A stretch of DNA of 64,000 nucleotides. It comes from an uncultured Planctomycetota bacterium (lineage in GTDB: Bacteria > Planctomycetota > Planctomycetia > Isosphaerales > Isosphaeraceae). The stretch's first letter is position 1. Each line of letters starts with the position of its first letter. The position numbers and the translations under genes are program-made. The stretch lies in contig CAWGMQ010000006.1 of the NCBI GenBank assembly GCA_963823665.1, positions 864,001 through 928,000 of the forward strand, given 5' to 3'. Below the pieces are notes generated by a model. That model made no database searches, was not told the DNA's origin, and saw nothing but the letters and a program-made list of their open reading frames with translations. Positions 40,290-63,325 of this stretch are shown piece by piece.

Positions 40290-41732
40290 CTATAGCGTTG
40301 CTATCGGACTGAGCTGGAAGCCCATCGCCGCCGCCTTCCGCTGGAGCGCTCTCACCAGATTGGCTTTGATCTTGGCCTCGTACTCCTCCATCGACTGGGT
40401 CACATACTCTTCGCCGTACTTGAGCATCCTGTAGACCAAACAGGCCAGCTTGTGTGCAGTCGCCTTGACGGCTCCAAGTCCACCGATCCGACTTTTGATC
40501 CGTCGGTAGTACATGCCCAAGGGTGTCATCGTCTTGCCTGCTGACTGCGCGGCCATCCGTAGGGCGATAGCGACTCGGTTCTTCCCTTGGCGATGACCGC
40601 GACGTCTTTTGGTCTTATTGCTCTCATCCTGGGAAGGACAAAGACGCAGCCAACTTGCGAAGTGCTTCTCCGTGGGAAACCGACTGACGTCCACACCGAT
40701 TTCGGCCAGAATGATCAGGGCCGTTCCCACGCCGATTCCCTCGATTTTTGTCAGGTCTACACCCAATGCCTGGAACAACGGGCCCGTCGCCTCGAATCGG
40801 GCATCGTTGCTTTTGCGACCACGCGTGCGTGGCTTACCAGTTTGTGTCTTCTCTCCCGCCCGGTTTTCGAATTTGGCCAGTTCGGCTTCAATCTGCTGGT
40901 CACACTCGGTGATCTGCCCATGATGGAACTGGTACAGCTCGCGCACCTGCCGCAGCTCGAAGAGATGTTCGGGCCGCCATGTCCCTTCCAACGCTAGGGC
41001 AATCTGCTCCTCGCTGTGATTACAGCGCCCATGCCGCAGTTTGGCCAGCTTCTTGGGATTGCGTTGGCCTCGCAGAATGGCGTCGATGATCGAAATGCCC
41101 GTCAGTCCCGTGATGTCGCTCATGACTTCCGTCAGTTTGACGTTCATCTGCTCCAAGGCCTTCTGCATGTGTTGGACATGAGCAGCGGCGTAACGCACCA
41201 GCATCTGCCGTTGCCGGGAGTAGGCGCGCAGGGCCAACACGGAGTCCGGAGGTCGGAACGACCCACGTAAGAGGCCGTAGGAGTGCAACCGCTGGATCCA
41301 CTGCGCGTCGAGTACGTCCGTCTTGGGGCGCGCGCCACAACGCGAAAGCTGTCCCGGTTCGACCAGCATAACCTCGAAGCCCTGGGATTCGAGGAGCTCG
41401 AACAGAGGAATCCAGTAAATGCCGGTGGATTCCAACGCGACGGTTTTTACGCCGCATTTCTTTAACCACACGGCGATCTCCTGAAGATCGGCGGTGTTGG
41501 CACCGAACTGGCGGACTGGGTCAACGTCGCGGTCAGCGGGAACGCAGACCATATGCATGTCGGAATGAACATCAACTCCGGCTGCGTCTGGATTCACGAC
41601 ACTGAGCGGTGCAGAGGAGGCGGGGACGGGGACGGGAAGCGACCTGACCCGCGGCTTGTTGGTCGGCTCCTTGGGTTTGCTCGGCTTCTTGGGCTTGCGT
41701 GGCTTCTTCGGCTCTTCGTGGGGGACAAGCAT
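40290..41732 (-). CDS. IS110 family DEDD transposase/recombinase
   Basis: AAGVDVH, ALESTGIYW, KTDVLDAQW; IEGIG...EIG...FASWLRLCP; AHKLA. Confidence 0.95.
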   Translation of the reverse strand: MLVPHEEPKKPRKPKKPSKPKEPTNKPRVRSLPVPVPASSAPLSVVNPDAAGVDVHSDMHMVCVPADRDVDPVRQFGANTADLQEIAVWLKKCGVKTVALESTGIYWIPLFELLESQGFEVMLVEPGQLSRCGARPKTDVLDAQWIQRLHSYGLLRGSFRPPDSVLALRAYSRQRQMLVRYAAAHVQHMQKALEQMNVKLTEVMSDITGLTGISIIDAILRGQRNPKKLAKLRHGRCNHSEEQIALALEGTWRPEHLFELRQVRELYQFHHGQITECDQQIEAELAKFENRAGEKTQTGKPRTRGRKSNDARFEATGPLFQALGVDLTKIEGIGVGTALIILAEIGVDVSRFPTEKHFASWLRLCPSQDESNKTKRRRGHRQGKNRVAIALRMAAQSAGKTMTPLGMYYRRIKSRIGGLGAVKATAHKLACLVYRMLKYGEEYVTQSMEEYEAKIKANLVRALQRKAAAMGFQLSPIATL

Positions 41733-46776: not shown

Positions 46777-46882
46777 GAGAAGCCAGAGAAGCCAGACACC
46801 CAATCTCTGAGGAGCCAGAGAGGAGCCAGACACCCAATCTCGAGGAGCCAGACACCCAATCTCTGGTTCCGAGGAGGAGCCA
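46777..46882 (+). repeat. Stuttered tandem copies of GAGGAGCCAGACACCCAATCTC
   Basis: Three CCAGACACCCAATCTC copies interleaved with partial GAG(G/A)AGCCAG units. Confidence 0.85.
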
Positions 46883-47025
46883 GGGAATTCAAGACACCCA
46901 TCCGTTGTCACGGCCCTCCGCATCCATTCATTCGTGGCACGCAAATTCGGTGCAAAACCACGGCCTCTGGTCATTTCGAGCACGCAGAAGGCCAGTGCCC
47001 GACGCTCGGCAAACGGTGGGTGTCT
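46883..47025 (+). mobile_element. ~145-bp inverted-repeat element (MITE/REPIN-like), copy 1; right arm interrupted by intron 1
   Basis: AGACACCCATCC...GGTGGGTGTCT; arm completed by GCCATCC at 49038-49044. Confidence 0.85.
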
Positions 47026-49037
47026 TTGCGTCAGGAAAAGCTCGAGAAAGGGGGAAGTGCCTCGAAACACAGAAACCTTTCATCGCGACCCTGCGGGTTA
47101 ACGAATCCCGCCCGGCAGAGCCTGGCCGGCAGCCGGAAGCAAGTCTTGCGTGGGGAGGGGTGACCCTCACTGCGAAGCGTAGACAGCGAGTCCCCATGCC
47201 ATGCTATCGAGCCCCGAAATACTCATCGTGGGAGCCTCCGTTGTAGACACAAGCGGGGGCCGCGTCGACACGCCGCAATGGCCTGGCGTGTTCGGTCCTG
47301 CCGGGGTCCAAGAACATGGCGCAGGGACGCGAGGGTTGCTCGGGAACCTGAGAGCCCCATCCGTCTCCACTGACATTTCCGGCTCGGGAACCGGAATACC
47401 AACTCCCCGGCCCACGACCCCGCGTCGGGTCGCTGGGAGCGAACAGGACGCAAGGGTGGTATCGCCACACGAAGGCAACGAAGTGCGGCGAAAGGGGCGG
47501 ATGGGAGTCGGAGCGTCTCGTAGTACCGTTGAAGCCGGGGAACCACTCCGAGGGACCCGGTGGAGGGAAGGAGACGCCATGTCACACAACCGTTGGAGGG
47601 AAACATGGCGGGTGCATCGGAACCCGTGGACGTGTCCACGAAACAACAACGGATAGCGGAACTCGCTCGGCGAAGCCCGGAGATGGGATTCACATCCCTG
47701 GGGCACTTCATCGACCTCGATTGGCTGCTCACAGCTTACTACCGGACCCGCCAAGACGGGGCGGTGGGCGTAGACGGACAAGATGGCGAGGCCTACGCAG
47801 CGAACCTGGTCCCGAACCTACGGTCGCTGCTGGAACGAGCCAAGTCCGGTACGTACCACGCACCGCCTGTGCGGCGAGTGCATATCCCCAAGGCAGGCTC
47901 AGCGACCGAAACCCGGCCACTGGGAATCCCGACCTTCGAGGATAAAGTGCTCCAGCGTGCTGTCGTGATGGTTCTGGAGGCGATATACGAGCAGGACTTC
48001 AAGAACTGCTCGCATGGCTTCCGGCCCGAGCGATCGGCACACACTGCGTCAGAGAGCCTGTGGCAACAGACGATGAACATGAAGGGCGGATGGGTAGTGG
48101 ATGTGGACATTCGTAAGTTCTTTGACACGATTGACCACGGCCATCTACGCGACTTCCTCAAGCGTCGGGTGCGAGACGGAGTGCTGCTCCGGCTCATCGG
48201 CAAATGGCTCAATGCGGGCGTCTTCGAGAACGGGTGCGTTACGCACCCCGAAATGGGGTCGCCACAAGGGGGTGTGATCAGCCCGATCCTTTCGAATATC
48301 TTCCTGCACTACGTGCTGGACGAGTGGTTCGAGCGGGAGGTTCAGCCTCGGATGATGGGCAGATCGTTCTTGATCCGCTATGCGGACGACTTCGTCATGG
48401 TCTTCTCATGCGAGTCCGACGCACGGCGTGTGATGAATGTGTTGCCCAAACGCTTTGAGAAGTACGGCTTGACCATCCACCCGGACAAGACGCGGCTGGT
48501 GCCGTTCGAGCGGCCATCGGACCGTCCCAAACCGGAAGGCGGACCCCCGCGAACTCCACCAGGGACATTCGACCTGCTGGCGTTCACGCATTACTGGGGT
48601 CGCTCCCGGCAGGGTCGCTGGGTGGTGAAGCGCAAGACGTCCAAAAGTCGATTTCGCCGAGGCCTGCGAACGTTGGCGGACTGGTGTCGCAAAAATCGAC
48701 ATCTACCGCTCAAGGTGCAGCACCGGATACTAGGTCAGAAACTGCTAGGCCACTATGCCTACTACGGAATCACCGGCAACTCCAAAATGTTGTCACGGTT
48801 TCGCAGTGGTGCCACCTGGCTCTGGCAGCACTGGCTGTCGCGCCGCGGGCGCGGCCGTCGGATGACATGGGAACGGTTCGCTCGGTTCCTGAAGCATAAA
48901 CCGCTTCCGGCAGCGATTGCGATCCACTCAGTATGCCGTCTCGTAGCGAACAAGTGACATGACGAGCCGGGTGCCTTAATTGGGCAAGCCCGGCTCTGTG
49001 GGAGCCTTGGGGGAGCGATCCCCCAAGGCGACCCGGC
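47026..49037 (+). mobile_element. Group II intron 1 (bacterial class E-like, RT-encoding)
   Basis: 5' TTGCG; EBS1 AGACAC 47245-47250 pairs with exon GTGTCT; D5 48964-48996 (AGC triad); D6 ends GACCCGGC. Confidence 0.92.
47605..48957 (+). CDS. ltrA: Group II intron reverse transcriptase/maturase without endonuclease
   Basis: GGAGG RBS; RPLGIPTFED, DIRKFFD, GSPQGG, RYADD; domain X GHYAYYG; no HNH. Confidence 0.95.
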   Translation: MAGASEPVDVSTKQQRIAELARRSPEMGFTSLGHFIDLDWLLTAYYRTRQDGAVGVDGQDGEAYAANLVPNLRSLLERAKSGTYHAPPVRRVHIPKAGSATETRPLGIPTFEDKVLQRAVVMVLEAIYEQDFKNCSHGFRPERSAHTASESLWQQTMNMKGGWVVDVDIRKFFDTIDHGHLRDFLKRRVRDGVLLRLIGKWLNAGVFENGCVTHPEMGSPQGGVISPILSNIFLHYVLDEWFEREVQPRMMGRSFLIRYADDFVMVFSCESDARRVMNVLPKRFEKYGLTIHPDKTRLVPFERPSDRPKPEGGPPRTPPGTFDLLAFTHYWGRSRQGRWVVKRKTSKSRFRRGLRTLADWCRKNRHLPLKVQHRILGQKLLGHYAYYGITGNSKMLSRFRSGATWLWQHWLSRRGRGRRMTWERFARFLKHKPLPAAIAIHSVCRLVANK

Positions 49038-49781
49038 GCCATCCTGAGATCGATGGGTGTCTGCCATCCCTGCGCCAAGAAGCTCGGAAAAGGAGGATCA
49101 TCTCAAATGTGAAACCTTTTAGCGGAACCCTGCGGGTAACCAATCCCGTCCGGCAGAGCCGGGCCAGCAGCCGGAAGTGAGTCTTGCGTGGGGAGAGGCG
49201 ACTCTCACTGCGAAGCGTAGACAGCGAGATCAAACGCTGTGCGATTGAGCCTCGAAATTTTCCCTCTTTGTCCTGAGCCCTCGTCCTTGTCTGACGCGGG
49301 GGCCGAGCCGGGCATTAGCGAAACCTGGACCCACTAGCGTGCCCGGTCAGACCGGGGTCGGAGAACATGGCGAATGATCAGTAGGGTTCCCCGGGAACTT
49401 GGGAGACCTTGTCGTTTCCATCGTGACGGCCGGCCGGAGCACCGGCTTACCAACTCCAGGTTGATCCACAGCTCTGTCCCGAGCTGGTGGGGACGAACAG
49501 GGGACGAACGATGGTATCGCCAAGCGAAGGAAACGAAGCGCGGCGAAATGGACGGCAAGGAGTCGGAGTGCCCCATAGTAGTGTTGAAGCGGGGGAACGG
49601 CCCTCCGGACCCTGTGGAGCGAAGGGGGCACCGCGTTGTGGATGGGAAGTTGGAACCACGCCGAGGACACCGTGCCTCACCAGCGTGTCACCGCGAAACG
49701 ACCTAGTCGTGTGAGGGACAGTGATTCCCCAACGTGACGAGCCGGATGCCTCTTCGACGGGCAAGTCCGGATCTGTGGGAA

Positions 49782-52201
49782 TCGCGAAACGAAGCTGCGG
49801 ATGAGTCTGTTATGACTGGATTTGCAACCAGGACATAACCCGATGTACGACCACCGGAACCCTACCAGGACGTGCGGCCGGAGCAATCCGACCGTGCGAA
49901 GCTCTTGGGACAACGTAACCTCACCTTCGGGTGGTTGGATATCCCGTGAGGGAATCCGGCGACTGCGAACGCCAATGCGGTCGGGGGCCAGGGGTGGATG
50001 GCATGGCTAATCCAGGTGAACTGCCGATAAACGTCGTGAGATCCAACAAGCCAAAGGCGCTGAGAGGCTTGAACCAAAAAGGTACGTGGCCAGGTACAGT
50101 GGGATTTCCCATCCCCTGTCGTCGTCATCCGAGCCACCGGCGGAGAGGCAGAGCCTAAACCATCCGTGATTCATCCGTGGAACGTGGTAAGCCCGTCGCC
50201 CTCCCTTCGGGGTAGGACCGTCGTAAGGCGTCGCCGATGGGGCGGCGGGTGGAGGATGAGGGAGCAAGCCAATGCCGTTCGGTAGTCGATCGGATAGAGG
50301 GTGAGTCCTCCCACGGACGACATCCCCTCACCGCGAAAGCGGTGCCGACTTCCCTCAGGTGTTCCGTCACGAGAGAACCTTGGCCAACCGACTCAGGGAG
50401 ACAAGCAGATATGTCGGCGGCAGAAATGCTTGCTGGTGCGGCTCCCGAGCTTACGCCCGACTGGCACTCCATCGAATGGAAGAAAGTCTGGCGCACAGTC
50501 CGTCGGCTCCAGGCGCGTATCGTGAAGGCTGTTGCGGAGGGCAGATGGAATAAGGTCAAGGCTCTGGTTTATCTGCTCACGCACTCGTTCAGTGGCCGGG
50601 CCCTGGCCATTTTGCGAGTCATCAGTAATTCGGGTGCGAAGACTCCCGGTGTGGACGGAGTTCTCTGGAACACACCGGAAGCCAAGTCGGCTGCTTTCAG
50701 CACTCTGCGTCGGCACGGTTACCAACCGCAACCGCTCCGCCGGGTGTACATTCCCAAAAGCAACGGCAAGCGACGTCCTCTCGGAATTCCCACCATGTCA
50801 GATCGAGCCATGCAGGCATTATACTTGCTAGGCCTCGATCCCATTGCGGAATCTCGAGCCGACGGCCATTCCTATGGCTTTCGGCTGGAACGTCGTTGTG
50901 CCGACGCCCTGGAACAATCTCATATTGTCTTGGGTAATCGGAGCGGTCCAGCATGGATTCTCGAAGGGGACATCAAAGCTTGCTTTGATCGCATCAGTCA
51001 TGACTGGCTCTTGACGCACGTCCCCATGGACCGGCAGTTGCTCGGGCAATGGCTGAAAGTGGGTTTCCTGGAGAAGCACGCCTGGTTCGCCACCACGGAA
51101 GGAACACCTCAAGGCGGGATCATTTCACCCGTCCTGGCGAATTGGACTCTGGATGGACTGCAACGGCTGTTGGCGGAACAGTTCGCCGAGAAGCACGGGC
51201 GACAACGGAAGTTTAAAGTCCACCTGGTCCGCTATGCGGATGACTTCTTGATCACGGGCATCTCAAAGGAACTCCTCCGTGACCAAGTGCAACCTCTCGT
51301 GGCTCATTTCTTGAAGGAACGCGGCTTGGAACTTTCCCACGAGAAAACCCAGATCACGCATGTGGAGGATGGCTTCGATTTCTTGGGGCAGAATGTGCGA
51401 CGCTATCGCTGCGGCAAGGTGTTCACCAAGCCGTCCTTGCGAAACGTGAAGACGTTCTTGAACAAGATACAGGAAACGATCGACGGCTCGGGCAGCCTAA
51501 CGGCAGGAGAGATGATCTGGCGTTTGAATCAGCAGATCAAGGGCTGGACCATGTACCACCGTTACGCGGCGAGCAAGCGCACTTTTACGTACGTGGATCA
51601 CCGGATTTTCCAGAAATTGTGGCGTTGGTGTCGACGACGGCACCAGAACAAAGGCCGGAGGTGGATCAAGGAGAAATACTTCCAGCAAGACGGTTACCGC
51701 CACTGGGTCTTCACCGGTACGCTGTTTGACCAGAAAGGCCAAGGCCGGCCGATCCAGTTGATGGAAGCAGCCAAAGTGAAGATCATTCGTTATGTGAAGA
51801 TCCGGAGCGACGTGAATCCCTACGATCCGAAGTGGGAACTGTACCTGGAAGCACGACTGGGTTGGCAACTGAGCCAAACGCTGGCAGGTCGGGGTCGGAT
51901 CGAATACTTATGGAAGGAACAAGAGGGACGATGCGTGGTCTGTGGTCAACCGCTGCGGATCGCAGAGGAAGACTTGCATCTCCACCATCGCATCTGGCGC
52001 AGCCGGGGCGGTTCTGGCACAGCCGACAACCTGGAGTTGTTGCATGCCAACTGTCATCGGCAGATCCATGTCCAAGAACGACTGACGAAAGCGGCCGCGT
52101 CCTGCGAGGGGCGTTCGTGAAGGCTTGAGCTGCATGAAGGGAAACTTTCACGTGCAGTTCTGAGGGGAGGGGGTGGCGGTAACGTCACCTCCTTACCCGG
52201 C
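49782..52201 (+). mobile_element. Group II intron 3 (CL1-like); inner intron of the twintron
   Basis: 5' TCGCGAAACGAAGCTGCGGATGAG; EBS2 AGATCC 50039-50044; EBS1 TTCCCA 50106-50111; D5 52127-52160; ends TTACCCGGC. Confidence 0.9.
50411..52120 (+). CDS. ltrA: Group II intron RT/maturase with RVT_N and HNH endonuclease domains
   Basis: WHSIEW...[35 protein letters not shown]...HH...GG...NL...HANCHRQIH. Confidence 0.95.
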
Positions 52202-52234
52202 CCCGGGGCGGGCAACCGCCCTGGGTGACCCGGC

Positions 52235-53179: not shown

Positions 53180-53226
53180 CGGTCAGATGAGATTCAGGAT
53201 GTCCAACCGGTCAGACCCTCCAAGGA

Positions 53227-53377
53227 GGAATCCAGGCACCGATCCTTTGTCTCACGGCCTCCGCATCCATTCATTCGCGGCTCGCTCGTTCGGTGCAAAA
53301 CCACGGCCTCTGGTCATTTCGAACACGCAGAAGGCCAGTGCCCGACGCTCGGCAAACGGTGGGTGTCTGACATCCCC
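53227..53377 (+). mobile_element. Inverted-repeat element copy 3 (intron-free, empty site)
   Basis: GGAATCCAGGCACCGATCC...GGTGGGTGTCTGACATCCCC uninterrupted. Confidence 0.88.
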
Positions 53378-53379
53378 TC

Positions 53380-56053: not shown

Positions 56054-56196
56054 GGGATTCCAGACACCCATCCTTTGTCTCACGGCCTCCACATCCATTC
56101 ATTCGCGGCTCGCTCGTTCGGCGCAAAACCACGGCCTCTGGTCAAGTCGAACACGCAGAAGGCCAGTGCCCGATGCTCGGCAAACGGTGGGTGTCT
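56054..56196 (+). mobile_element. Inverted-repeat element copy 4; right arm interrupted by intron 4
   Basis: GGGATTCCAGACACCCATCC...GGTGGGTGTCT; GGCATCC resumes at 56929. Confidence 0.88.
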
Positions 56197-56928
56197 TTGC
56201 GTCAGGAAAGCTCGAGAAAGGAGGAAGTGCCTCGAAACACAGAAACCTTTCATCGCGACCCTGCGGGTTAACGAATCCCGCCCGGCAGAGCCTGGCCGGC
56301 AGCCGGAAGCAAGTCTTGCGTGGGGAGGGGTGACCCTCACTGCGAAGCGTAGACAGCGAGTCTCCATGCCATGCTATCGAGCCCCGAAATACTCATCGTG
56401 GGAGCCTCCGTTGTAGACACAAGCGGGGGCCGTGTCGACACGCCGCAATGGCCTGGCGTGTTCGGTCCTGCCGGGGTCCAAGAACATGGCGCAGGGACGC
56501 GAGGGTTGCTCGGGAACCTGAGAGCCCCATCCGTCTCCACTGACATTTCCGGCTCGGGAACCGGAATACCAACTCCCCGGCCCACGACCCCGCGTCGGGT
56601 CGCTGGGAGCGAACAAGACGCAAGGGTGGTATCGCCAAACGAAGGCAACGAAGTGCGGCGAAATGGGCGGACGGGAGTCGGAGTGCTCCGTAGTAGCAGT
56701 GAAGCGGGGGAATGGGCCCTCCCAGACCCTGTGGAGCGAAGGGGGTACCGTGTCGCGGACTGGAAGCCGGAACCACGCCGAGGGCATTGGACCTCAGAGC
56801 GCGTCACCGCGAGGCGACCAGATCGTGTGAGGGACAGCGACGCCGCGACATGACGAGCCGGATGCCTTAATTGGGCACGTCCGGATCAGTGGGAGCCCTG
56901 GCGGAGCGATCCGCCAGGGCGACCCGGC
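56197..56928 (+). mobile_element. Group II intron 4 (ORF-less, 732 nt)
   Basis: TTGCG start; EBS1 AGACAC 56415-56420; D5 56855-56887; intact D6 ending GACCCGGC; no RT ORF. Confidence 0.92.
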
Positions 56929-57236
56929 GGCATCCGTGAGCGCCGTCCCAGGGACCAAGTCCGAAGGAAGGGCGGCAGGAAGCCGCCCCTCACCTCACCT
57001 TCGGGATTGGTACTAATGCGCTAAATCGTTCCACTCAATCGTTTCTCCACCAGTAGCTAACGACGCAATCCGGGAATTCCAGTTCACGCTGAACTATTAC
57101 AGGTGCCATTATGGCGCCCAGGGAGTGTCGCTCCGCCGCCGGCTCGTCTATGGCTACGGGAACGGCTCAGTTTCCGACCATGACCGGCGCGATTTGAAGT
57201 ACGCGGCACGGGATGGAAGCCCGCTTGAGGGAGTAG

Positions 57237-58172
57237 ATGATGTCTCTCGCGATAAGACCGTTAGGCGAAGCGGACCTAGACAACGCCGATCGCATCCTCC
57301 GCCTAGCTTTCAATCAGTTCCTTGGTCTCAAGCCACCGACTGACTTTTTTGGCGACTCCGACTACGTTCGAACCAGGTGGCGCACGGCACCAACAGCAGC
57401 TATCGGAGCCTATCTTGATGGTGAGTTGGTTGGGTCCAACTTTCTCACGCGCTGGGGGAGTTTCGGTTTCTTCGGCCCATTGTCAGTGCATCCAGACCGG
57501 TGGGGCGAGCGTATCGCCTCGGGCCTTCTTGAGGCGACAGTTGGAATGTTTACCGATTGGAAAACTGAGGTAGAGGGGCTTTTCACATTCGCGCAGAGCC
57601 CTAGCCACATTCGACTCTATCAAAGATACGGTTTCTGGCCTCGCTACCTAACGATGATCATGAGCAGGCCCGTCGATTCAGCGATCTCCGTGGCAAAGCC
57701 CGCGTTTGAATTAAGTATGAATGACTCCCCGGGTGTTAGAGAGCTGCGCGAATTGATGGAGGAAATTCATCCGGGGTTGGACCTTGAGCGCGAGATTATC
57801 TCCGTTCGAGAACAATCGCTGGGCCAGGCTGTCACGATCCGAGATGAGGGGCTCCTTGGGGGTATAGCGGTTTGCCATGTAGGGCCGAAGACGGAGGCCG
57901 GTGGTGACGCATGTTATGTAAAATTTGGCGGGGTTCGCCCTGGCTTTGGGTCGGGGCCCCGGTTCGACCGCCTTGTCGACGCATGCGACGCAATTGCCAG
58001 CCACAATGGTGTCAGCCGTTTGATTCTCGGAGTAAATGCAGCTTGCTGCCCTGCATACCGCAGACTTCTAGAACGGGGATTCCGCACTGAACTGCAGGGG
58101 ATAGCCATGCATAGAAACGATCTACCAGGCTATTTTCGCTCTGAATCATACGTCGTCTGCGATTGGCGATAG
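57237..58172 (+). CDS. GNAT family N-acetyltransferase (tandem GNAT folds)
   Basis: FFGPLSVHPDRWGERIASGLL; IRLYQRYGF; AYRRLLERGFR; visibly lower GC. Confidence 0.85.
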   Translation: MMSLAIRPLGEADLDNADRILRLAFNQFLGLKPPTDFFGDSDYVRTRWRTAPTAAIGAYLDGELVGSNFLTRWGSFGFFGPLSVHPDRWGERIASGLLEATVGMFTDWKTEVEGLFTFAQSPSHIRLYQRYGFWPRYLTMIMSRPVDSAISVAKPAFELSMNDSPGVRELRELMEEIHPGLDLEREIISVREQSLGQAVTIRDEGLLGGIAVCHVGPKTEAGGDACYVKFGGVRPGFGSGPRFDRLVDACDAIASHNGVSRLILGVNAACCPAYRRLLERGFRTELQGIAMHRNDLPGYFRSESYVVCDWR

Positions 58173-58310
58173 CAACCCTTGAGTACGTAATTTTCGATCG
58201 CGCATTTGCGTTAAACGAGATAATTCTGCTTCCGAGGAATTTAACGAATTGCGGTATTGGAAGCTAGGAGCTTGGGCGGATCTAATCGGCAATAACTGGG
58301 GGGCATCCTA

Positions 58311-58495
58311 TTGGAAGACTCAAAGAAGACCAAGAAGCAGTTGTTAGCGGAATTGGAATTGACTCGGCGTACGAACGCATCTTTGGAGGCCGCAATTAGC
58401 GAACTTCGAAAGAGGCAAAGTTTTGCGGAGGCACGCTATCGGAACCTGTTCAATAATGCCGATGACGGACTTTTCCAAACCAGTCCAGATGGGGT
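58311..58495 (+). pseudogene. N-terminal stub of a PAS-domain sensor protein
   Basis: KTKKQLLAELE...EARYRNLFNNADDGLFQTSPDG, cut at element copy 5. Confidence 0.7.
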
Positions 58496-58502
58496 TTCCA
58501 GA

Positions 58503-58644
58503 GGTTTCCAGACACCCATCCTTTGTCCCACGGCCCCCGCATCCATTCATTCGCGGCTCGCACGCTCGGCGGAAAACCACGGCCTCTGGTCAATTCGAAC
58601 ACGCAGAAGGCGAGTGCCCGACGCTCGGCAAACGGTGGGTGTCT
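58503..58644 (+). mobile_element. Inverted-repeat element copy 5; right arm interrupted by intron 5
   Basis: GGTTTCCAGACACCCATCC (preceded by an extra GGTTTCCAGA)...GGTGGGTGTCT; GGCATCCC resumes at 59377. Confidence 0.88.
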
Positions 58645-59376
58645 TTGCGTCAGGAAAGCTCGAGAAAGGAGGAAGTGCCTCGAAACACAGAAACCTTTCA
58701 TCGCGACCCTGCGGGTTAACGAATCCCGCCCGGCAGAGCCTGGCCGGCAGCCGGAAGCAAGTCTTGCGTGGGGAGGGGTGACCCTCACTGCGAAGCGTAG
58801 ACAGCGAGTCTCCATGCCATGCTATCGAGCCCCGAAATACTCATCGTGGGAGCCTCCGTTGTAGACACAAGCGGGGGCCGTGTCGACACGCCGCAATGGC
58901 CTGGCGTGTTCGGTCCTGCCGGGGTCCAAGAACATGGCGCAGGGACGCGAGGGTTGCTCGGGAACCTGAGAGCCCCATCCGTCTCCACTGACATTTCCGG
59001 CTCGGGAACCGGAATACCAACTCCCCGGCCCACGACCCCGCGTCGGGTCGCTGGGAGCGAACAAGACGCAAGGGTGGTATCGCCAAACGAAGGCAACGAA
59101 GTGCGGCGAAATGGGCGGACGGGAGTCGGAGTGCTCCGTAGTAGCAGTGAAGCGGGGGAATGGGCCCTCCCAGACCCTGTGGAGCGAAGGGGGTACCGTG
59201 TCGCGGACTGGAAGCCGGAACCACGCCGAGGGCATTGGACCTCAGAGCGCGTCACCGCGAGGCGACCAGATCGTGTGAGGGACAGCGACGCCGCGACATG
59301 ACGAGCCGGATGCCTTAATTGGGCACGTCCGGATCAGTGGGAGCCCTGGCGGAGCGATCCGCCAGGGCGACCCGGC
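58645..59376 (+). mobile_element. Group II intron 5 (ORF-less, 732 nt; identical to intron 4 by eye)
   Basis: Same termini; EBS1 58863-58868; D5 59303-59335. Confidence 0.92.
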
Positions 59377-59455
59377 GGCATCCCGTGTTACGATCGGAAC
59401 AACCGTAGAATGTTGCCAGTCTCGTCGTCATCGACGCCGGTTGGAGAACGACATC

Positions 59456-62854: not shown

Positions 62855-62995
62855 ATGCCAAGAACAGCGAGGGTAGCAGCTTGGGGCTTTGTCTATCACG
62901 TCCTGAACCGATCCGTCGGCAGGATGCACATGTTCCGCAAGGAGTCCGACTTCGAGGCGTTCGAGCGTGTCATGGTTGAAGCTCACCTGCGGCAA
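62855..62995 (+). pseudogene. N-terminal stub of a RAYT-like (Y1 HUH) transposase
   Basis: MPRTAR...GFVYHVLNRSVGRMHMFRKESDFEAFERVM; ends before the HUH motif. Confidence 0.8.
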
Positions 62996-63325
62996 CGTCC
63001 TCGCCAACGAGATCGCTGGTCACAAGGCGGAGCGGCGGCCGAGGGCCGGAGAAGAATGGCTTGCCGCGACCAAGTACGATGGGGTGGATGTAAAGTCGAT
63101 GCTCATCAATAAGACCAAAGTTGGTTAGGCTTCCTGCCAAGTCTGGTCCGGCAACTTCAATCTCCCCAACTGGCTGTGCCTTCAGCCCACGTATCACCGC
63201 CTCGATGTCATCCTCGACAAGTGTGGCGTTGGGTCCGACCGACTTCAACGTGCGCGACACAACCCACTTCGGCTGGCTCCGCCACGCCGCCGCGAAGTCG
63301 TGTTCCTCCGCGCCCCAACGCCTCT
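62996..63325 (-). pseudogene. Fragment of a dihydrofolate reductase/RibD C-terminal family protein
   Basis: PKWVVSRTL...GPDLAGSL...GLIDEHRLYIHPIVLGRGKPFF; both ends missing. Confidence 0.75.

What the first reader, a model, noticed from the sequence alone, without database searches (positions are those of the whole stretch)
56197..59376. ORF-less introns show evidence of recent independent mobility
Seen: the two 732-nt introns read as identical, whereas their host elements differ at multiple positions (e.g. GCTCGTTCGGCGC vs GCACGCTCGGCGG) and the outer flanks are unrelated. Inference: separate recent retrohoming events into older element copies, not segmental duplication. This requires an RT in trans, most plausibly intron 1's.
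Basis: partly seen in the sequence, partly recalled or inferred. Interest (0 to 1): 0.75.

Follow-up and report, generated by a model that had tools for sequence, protein, structure and literature searches.

The report
Enzyme-less introns invading mini-transposon ends
Two identical enzyme-less group II introns sit at the same base in the end repeats of two diverged mini-transposon copies, likely copied in separately with a reverse transcriptase borrowed from related full-length introns, and they belong to a widespread enzyme-less lineage that appears to take its targeting domain from the host genome's full-length introns.

Summary
Observation confirmed: the 732-nt introns (56197-56928, 58645-59376) are identical; their hosts differ at 10 of 142 bases. 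The genome holds 14 ORF-less and 6 RT-encoding copies of this family, all after TGGGTGTC(T/C), paired by EBS1. Copies occupy either end of the host repeat, or sites without it, so segmental duplication is excluded. The host is a ~150-bp MITE-like repeat sharing its ends with a 409-aa TnpA-Y1 (RAYT subclass-2.3-like) element. Three corrections: the helper is likely the family's RT, not specifically intron 1; host repeats diverge faster than unique DNA, so their divergence is no clock; copies recombine, so conversion may add to identity. New: the ORF-less intron is a chimera. Domain I is 96-100% identical to the resident RT intron, domains III-IV only 38-64%, grouping with ORF-less introns from many genera; the same signature occurs in two more genomes. 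Trans-mobilised ORF-less introns (T. elongatus) and homing into IS ends (RmInt2) are published, and this scan noted RAYT-end targeting before on other DNA. Mobility was not assayed. New variant of a known kind; interest 0.5.

The parts
56054..56196 (+). Host repeat 1 (MITE-like, ~150 bp): left end CAGACACCCA, interior, and right end up to the insertion point (IBS1 GTGTCT at 56191-56196)
56197..56928 (+). ORF-less group II intron, family A, copy 1 (732 nt)
56415..56420 (+). EBS1 (AGACAC) in the d3 loop; complementary to IBS1 GTGTCT; 58863-58868 in copy 2
56197..56646 (+). Domain I-II part, 96-100% identical to the genome's RT-encoding family A introns
56670..56854 (+). Domain III and ORF-less domain IV module, shared with ORF-less introns of other genera; 38-64% identical to the family A RT intron over nt 501-645
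56778..56795 (+). Small domain IV hairpin kept from the ORF start; loop matches that of the family A RT intron at 7 of 8 bases; candidate RT-binding site (inferred)
56855..56928 (+). Domain V (AGC triad 56856-56858) and domain VI (bulged A 56922)
   Evidence: sequence; consensus fold
56929..56935 (+). Tip of host repeat 1 after the intron (3' exon, GGCATCC)
56937..57101 (+). Right end of an insertion sequence, cut off at the tip of host repeat 1; 7 matches in the genome
57237..58172 (+). GNAT acetyltransferase gene between the two copies (bystander)
58503..58644 (+). Host repeat 2 up to the insertion point; 10 of 142 differences from host 1
58645..59376 (+). ORF-less group II intron, family A, copy 2; identical to copy 1
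59377..59383 (+). Tip of host repeat 2 after the intron
47026..49037 (+). RT-encoding family A intron ('intron 1'), same EBS1 and target, in another host repeat (46884-47025)
47605..48957 (+). RT/maturase ORF, 450 aa, YADD, no HNH endonuclease; one of six copies and a candidate helper
49070..52234 (+). ORF-less family B intron (targets the opposite strand of the same end repeat), split between DV and DVI by an HNH-encoding intron at about 49781-52199
53225..53378 (+). Empty host repeat showing the uninterrupted target TGGGTGTCT|GACATCCC; its G001 ortholog carries a family B intron end

Best explanation
The two introns are identical copies of an ORF-less group II intron that sit at the same base of a mini-transposon end repeat, and they were likely inserted separately and recently by retrohoming, using a reverse transcriptase likely supplied in trans by the genome's RT-encoding family A introns. 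Shown: identity, copy census, a fixed target (TGGGTGTCT|R) complementary to EBS1, occupancy of either end of the host repeat, and shared ends between the host repeat and a TnpA-Y1 (RAYT subclass-2.3-like) element. Inferred mechanism: read-through transcription, RT-assisted splicing, reverse splicing into the end repeat, and priming at the replication fork because the RT lacks an endonuclease. Inferred history: the intron descends from a long-lived ORF-less lineage (domains III-IV) that acquired domain I, and so its target specificity, from the resident RT intron by recombination near the domain II/III junction; recombination among copies continues. The Y1 element and its MITEs would keep supplying new targets.
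For: 13 uninterrupted ORF-less copies plus one split copy on 5 contigs; 5 of 13 exactly identical, others 1-25 differences. In all 21 pairs of 7 element-borne copies the host is 74-93% and the intron 97-100% identical. Two copies use the left end of a reversed host and three sit at sites without the ~150-bp host. All 15 uninterrupted family A sites share TGGGTGTCT. EBS1 and IBS1 pair at 5-6 of 6 positions in 40 of 43 parsed introns (44 given) with 15 different EBS1s; cross-pair control 414 of 1598. G001 has the repeat but best intron match 72% among the 40 candidates scored per search; the flank of copy C11:551452 is intron-free there. Intron strand is G-rich in 8 of 10 clusters, as expected for lagging-template insertion. 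Chimerism: identity profile; AU tests reject 'A ORF-less + A ORF' in DIII (p=2e-4) and 'ORF-less clade' in DI (p=2e-5); 22 of 24 ORF-less rows form one DIII-IV clade apart from all 20 ORF rows. 28 of 67 predicted pairs in DIII-DVI show compensatory change across 24 ORF-less sequences. Host ends: 21 of 34 and 26 of 35 loci of close Y1 homologs carry them, against 1 of 194 and 3 of 124 background windows.
Against: No splicing or mobility was observed; RNA runs held only fragments. No clean empty allele of either window site was found. Copies are mosaic (all four haplotypes at sites 168/237), so conversion can erase age. The window's own cluster has no GC skew and one cluster has the wrong sign; skew is only a proxy for replication direction. 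Of 11 ORF-less rows or groups with a same-genome RT intron in the alignment, only 3 show the swap signature, 1 is a plain deletion and 7 do not match their genome's RT intron (2 of these lack an intact DI). The ORF-less group was named after seeing the tree. Three introns have EBS1 mismatched to their site. EBS2 and EBS3 were not established.
Confidence: 0.75

Rival explanations
1. The introns were inserted long ago by retrohoming and owe their present identity mainly to gene conversion among copies.
For: Mosaic haplotypes shared among ORF-less and RT copies; DI homogenised with the RT introns; the two copies are only 2.4 kb apart; a ~700-bp conversion between intron copies is reported in Hamiltonella (PMC3522654, passage).
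Against: Family A is not found in same-genus G001, whose flanks are 96-98% identical (84% complete). Identical copies lie on different contigs while a neighbour 2.1 kb from one of them differs at 8 sites. The copy 1 block is absent from a ~99% identical strain.
Confidence: 0.14
2. The ORF-less copies retrohome, but the helper is a different RT of the genome (the 39%-identical family, the HNH-type introns, or a lost family B RT).
For: DIII-IV is not derived from the family A RT intron; other open RT frames exist; non-cognate RTs can mobilise ORF-less introns (PMC2882425, passages).
Against: ORF-less and RT family A copies share DI and the target context outside IBS1; the domain IV hairpin loop matches the family A RT intron and differs in family B; the closest other RTs (57-61%) are fragments.
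Confidence: 0.07
3. Host repeat and intron moved together (composite MITE transposition or segmental duplication).
For: Both copies have the same layout and orientation; the block at copy 1 looks recent; the tandem pair on C10 may be a local duplication.
Against: Hosts differ 7-26% around identical introns; copies occur at the other end and without the host; the intron splits the end repeat a transposase would need (inference).
Confidence: 0.03
4. Identity is an assembly artefact (consensus collapse).
For: Metagenome-assembled genome with homopolymer indels.
Against: The assembly keeps 8-25 differences in other copies, one of them 2.1 kb from an identical-type copy. Short contigs from other runs match with 0 differences over 323 nt (X1, depth 28 vs 2.7-4.3 in unique flanks) and 377 nt (X5); such contigs drop rare variants and X1 may be the source sample.
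Confidence: 0.02

Closest known systems
ORF-less TeI3 introns of Thermosynechococcus elongatus (PMC2882425; passages read)
   Same: Many ORF-less copies, good EBS/IBS pairing, mobilised in trans by related RTs; identical inner introns in diverged hosts were read as recent independent insertions, the same argument as here.
   Different: There all 17 ORF-less introns come from one deletion in a resident ORF-containing intron and target other introns or intergenic sites. Here DIII-IV come from a lineage shared across genera, the RT has no endonuclease, and the target is a transposon end.
RmInt2 of Sinorhizobium meliloti GR4 in ISRm17 inverted repeats (PMC4615759; passages read)
   Same: Endonuclease-minus intron homing into both inverted repeats of a mobile element, giving one target per strand; identical copies taken as recent.
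   Different: RmInt2 encodes its own class D RT and targets a conventional IS; here the intron is ORF-less, the host is a MITE of a HUH/Y1 element, and a second family uses the opposite strand five bases away.
TnpA-Y1 subclass 2.3 (PMC6006769; passages read)
   Same: 409-aa protein with NHLH and YVDLNP 113 residues apart (median 110 in 2.3), long C-terminal tail, many diverged copies.
   Different: [quoted passage not shown] Assignment rests on motifs, not on a tree.
Trichodesmium dnaN ORF-less introns served by the RIR intron RT (PMC12584367; introduction read)
   Same: One RT serves several related ORF-less introns.
   Different: Splicing in housekeeping genes, not spread through mobile-element ends.

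Membership tests
Group II intron (IIB-like) | Domain I-IV covariance-model match | tested here: met
   RF02005, 138 bits, cut-off 49
Group II intron (IIB-like) | DV with AGC triad and DVI with bulged A | tested here: met
   Sequence and consensus fold with covariation; RF00029 itself was not reached at its gathering score for these copies
Group II intron (IIB-like) | EBS1-IBS1 pairing | tested here: met
   6 of 6 pairs; covariation in 40 of 43 introns
Group II intron (IIB-like) | EBS2-IBS2 and EBS3-IBS3 pairing | tested here: inconclusive
   A CCAT near 56364 could read the conserved TGG at -9..-7, but no covariation was evident in the alignment; EBS3 not assigned
Group II intron (IIB-like) | Splicing to a lariat | not testable with these tools
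   RNA runs are contigs with 6% of words; no exon joint seen
Group II intron (IIB-like) | RT lineage (class D, E, F ...) | not tested
   TIGR04416 above cut-off, no HNH; best plasmid hits 52-58%; no named class references were compared
T. elongatus-type ORF-less introns mobilised in trans | Several ORF-less copies at EBS-paired sites with related RT introns in the genome | tested here: met
T. elongatus-type ORF-less introns mobilised in trans | Origin by ORF deletion from the resident RT intron | tested here: not met
   DIII-IV reject that origin
T. elongatus-type ORF-less introns mobilised in trans | Mobility shown with the RT in trans | not testable with these tools
   needs an assay
RmInt2-type homing into inverted repeats | Insertion at a fixed base of either terminal repeat of a mobile element | tested here: met
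   right ends and left ends both used
MITE of a TnpA-Y1 subclass-2.3-like element | Short non-coding repeat sharing both ends, in the same orientation, with the transposase element | tested here: met
MITE of a TnpA-Y1 subclass-2.3-like element | Partner protein is a HUH/Y1 enzyme of subclass 2.3 | tested here: inconclusive
   Motifs and spacing fit; NCBIfam NF047646 E=3e-8 but below cut-off; no PF01797 hit for this protein, no PDB relative; no tree
MITE of a TnpA-Y1 subclass-2.3-like element | Mobilisation by that enzyme | not testable with these tools
   no clean empty/filled pair found; repeats interrupt other genes
Classical REP/REPIN | Stable short hairpin with GTAG-type foot beside a group 2/3 RAYT | tested here: not met
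   ssDNA fold z = -1.6; family A target matches subclass-2.1 flanks no better than control

The most novel reading that the evidence does not exclude
A bacterial counterpart of SINE partner-switching: an old, family-wide non-autonomous group II intron lineage persists without any RT of its own by repeatedly capturing domain I from whichever autonomous intron is resident, thereby gaining its target and helper, in a layered system (Y1 transposase element, its MITEs, two intron families on opposite strands of the same end, and an HNH intron that invades those introns, against which the successful ORF-less copies carry a one-base escape).
Probability: 0.4. Interest if true: 0.7.

Novelty: new variant of a known kind. 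Interest (0 to 1): 0.5.

Why it matters
A review calls bacterial ORF-less group II introns rare and suggests that non-mobile derivatives do not persist long (PMC4424553, passages). A structurally conserved ORF-less module found across the ORF deletion in 27 of 121 genomes of one family that changes its targeting domain would show how a non-autonomous retroelement survives over long times, and gives a natural test of which domains set RT recognition. The data also give inverted ends and non-autonomous derivatives for subclass-2.3-like Y1 proteins, for which no flanking structure was identified (PMC6006769), making their activity testable. The original claim alone, recent trans-mobilisation of ORF-less copies, is ordinary.

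Tried and rejected
Classical RAYT (PF01797) as partner of the host repeat: none of 11 loci in G000 is flanked by its ends; the test of 32 targets against subclass-2.1 upstream flanks gave 17 of 32 at 10/12 or better against 3-14 of 32 in eight control sets, with the family A site at control level. Host repeat as a hairpin REP or known RNA: fold not significant, no Rfam hit. Empty alleles of the two window sites: no joint skipping either intron in 7 runs laid; the G001 ortholog of the right flank has unrelated DNA upstream; three other sites had no usable ortholog. Spliced RNA: none seen in two RNA runs with small shares, which is no evidence of absence. G072, G073 and G074 rows lack domain I and were not counted as swaps. 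A note that both uninvaded RT copies lack the HNH-intron motif was wrong and was corrected. RT class not determined; Simon et al. 2008 was not held. Literature searches listed no paper on ORF-less introns in planctomycetes or on domain I swapping; the library lacks most subscription papers and no supplements were read.

Full report
Setting. The window is G000:C6:864001-928000 of a 16.5-Mb, 12-contig assembly. Named records carrying the same repeat end are titled Planctomycetota or Isosphaeraceae MAGs, so the host is likely an Isosphaeraceae-like planctomycete (inference).

Observation. The introns 56197-56928 and 58645-59376 are identical over 732 nt; the identical block extends 22 bases upstream and 7 downstream. 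The hosts differ at 10 of 142 bases (Fisher p = 1e-8) and the outer flanks do not align. Both copies match RF02005, have DV and DVI, and no RT frame. Confirmed.

Census. The genome search returned 53 matches (40 of 153 candidates scored). They include 13 uninterrupted ORF-less copies and one split by another intron; 5 of the 13 are exactly identical, a sixth differs by one homopolymer base, the rest by 2-25 positions. Six RT-encoding copies exist; two have open 450-aa frames and four are broken only by single-base homopolymer indels, which may be read errors. The RT is a group II RT/maturase without HNH. All 15 uninterrupted family A copies follow TGGGTGTCT and precede G or A; one split copy follows TGGGTGTCC. 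EBS1 AGACAC pairs with IBS1 at 6 of 6. Across the clade 40 of 43 parsed introns (44 given) pair at 5-6 of 6 with 15 different EBS1s, against 414 of 1598 cross pairs; three do not pair. Relatives are not independent. 51 unoccupied matches of the motif remain.

Independent insertion. In all 21 pairs among 7 host-borne copies, hosts are 74-93% and introns 97-100% identical. Two copies sit in the left end of a reversed host and three at sites without the ~150-bp host. G001 (same genus, 84% complete) has 41 motif matches but no intron closer than 72% among the candidates scored. At one ORF-less site its 98%-identical flank has no intron, though the DNA upstream is rearranged. Two orthologous hosts in the window differ between G000 and G001 in occupancy by family B introns. 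The intron strand is G-rich in 8 of 10 clusters, neutral in the window's cluster and reversed in one; this fits the lagging-template bias of endonuclease-minus introns (PMC4615759, PMC8919778, passages) but is weak.

Orthologous hosts are 117/137 and 125/136 identical while adjacent unique DNA is 652/671 and 153/161, so hosts diverge or are replaced faster and do not date residence. In runs X2 and X3 (two studies) a ~99% identical GNAT locus has other DNA left of 57102, so the IS end, host 1 and copy 1 are all absent there: the block is young or rearranged. Family A copies are mosaics, so conversion may add to identity. Collapse is unlikely: the assembly keeps 8 differences in a copy 2.1 kb from an identical-type copy, and short contigs match without differences over 323 and 377 nt. 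Intron 1 is one of several candidate helpers and is not the closest in domain I.

What the host is. It is a ~150-bp repeat with at least 40 copies (40 of 101 candidates scored), ends CAGACACCCA and TGGGTGTCT, often tandemly duplicated. It is not a hairpin REP and classical RAYT loci are not flanked by it. The same ends, in the same orientation, bracket a 409-aa protein at G000:C8:1396555 with NHLH and YVDLNP 113 residues apart, which fits TnpA-Y1 subclass 2.3 (PMC6006769, passages); profile support is weak. Among 50 loci examined, close homologs carry the left end in 21 of 34 and the right end in 26 of 35 testable loci (a few loci overlap and count twice), distant ones in 3 of 9 and 1 of 7, background windows in 1 of 194 and 3 of 124. 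Three full-length copies and many fragments lie in G000. The host is thus likely a MITE of this element. Related introns in other genera mostly target similar motifs, several of which are inverted repeats of subclass-2.1 RAYT genes; one sits directly in such a repeat, though the pooled test was only weakly above control.

The ORF-less intron is a chimera. Against the family A RT introns it is 96-100% identical over nt 1-450, 86% over 451-500 and 38-64% over 501-645; against ORF-less family B it is 56-74% then 70-86%. In domain I it groups with its genome's RT introns (100/99); in DIII-IV it groups with ORF-less introns of G001, G002, G003 and G021 (100/99). AU tests reject the alternatives (p = 2e-5, 2e-4, 6e-35; groups named after seeing the tree). 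With 26 added rows, 22 of 24 ORF-less rows form one DIII-IV clade apart from all 20 ORF rows; G014 and G022 are separate deletions (quick tree). DI is 99% identical to a same-genome RT intron in G000, G003 and G051 while DIII-IV is 66-68%; seven other same-genome comparisons do not match. A contiguous match across the ORF deletion occurs in 27 of 121 family genomes (my count; 6 candidates scored per genome; includes G014 and 5'-truncated remnants); both intron ends were placed in 15 genomes of the shared lineage. 28 of 67 predicted pairs show compensatory change. A small domain IV hairpin keeps a loop that matches the family A RT intron here and the other RT type in family B; it is a candidate RT-binding site (inference).

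Mechanism. Shown: structure, target, census, chimerism, shared ends. Inferred: splicing and retrohoming with family A RT in trans, fork priming, capture of domain I by recombination, and supply of targets by the Y1 element. Confidence 0.75.

Comparison. Trans-mobilised ORF-less introns, and the identical-inner, diverged-outer argument, are published for T. elongatus (PMC2882425, passages). Homing into IS inverted repeats is published for RmInt2 (PMC4615759, passages). Earlier notes of this scan describe introns in RAYT-element ends in other genomes; none was found for the chimerism or by sequence. I found no paper on a family-wide ORF-less lineage that swaps domain I (searches; most subscription papers are not held; Simon et al. 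2008 could not be read; no supplements read). PMC5581495 and PMC8643678 were read as passages only and did not change the reading.

Verdict. Observation confirmed, interpretation partly supported. New variant of a known kind. Interest 0.5: the stated claim is ordinary, the chimeric long-lived lineage and the Y1 element ends are not.

Noticed in passing
window 49781-52199; L234, L236, L237, L238, L240, L241: An HNH-encoding intron (7 copies) inserts between DV and DVI of family A and B introns. It occupies 7 of 8 examined copies with GGATCTGTGGGA, none of 13 ORF-less A copies with GGATCAGTGGGA, and not intron 1 (GGCTCTGTGGGA): a possible one-base escape.
   Followed up: partly
window 49070-52234; L243:7538, L222, L224: A second ORF-less family (B) homes to CAGACA|CCCA, the opposite strand of the same end repeat, five bases from the family A site. 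The window copy has lost its matching 5' exon, implying a local rearrangement.
   Followed up: partly
window 46790-46900, 49038-49069; L004, L006, L007, L010, L013, L179, L296: Ends of the host repeat and of Y1/RAYT elements are often tandemly duplicated in 17-45 bp units, multiplying intron targets; on C3 two introns fill successive units.
   Followed up: no
window 56937-57101; L036:1839; L280:4003: Host repeat tips coincide with truncation of neighbouring mobile genes: an IS right end here, a subclass-2.1 RAYT gene and a subclass-2.3-like gene elsewhere.
   Followed up: partly
L083 (G014:C16), L078, L082, L084, L085: Subclass-2.1 RAYT genes have 16-34 bp inverted repeats, the upstream one often followed by TTGAC; in G014 an RT intron sits in the downstream repeat although its EBS1 does not pair with it.
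   Followed up: partly
L011 (G000:C10:1458546-1460035): Two ORF-less copies in tandem with a duplicated 24-bp target, one base apart in sequence; local duplication or sequential insertion.
   Followed up: no
L240 (G000:C8): A family B-type intron retargeted (EBS1 GGACGC) to a RAYT inverted repeat; its 3' part after the HNH intron belongs to another copy, suggesting recombination between HNH introns or misassembly.
   Followed up: no
L050, L063, L225 (G008): A related intron targets a different purine-rich repeat (ACGAAG|G) with a matching EBS1.
   Followed up: no
window 62855-63112 and 40290-41732: A RAYT N-terminal fragment (by resemblance to L037) and an IS110-family transposase.
   Followed up: no
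L348 (G073): Four identical matches of the ORF-less DIII-DVI module; the one examined lacks domain I and seems carried inside another element.
   Followed up: partly
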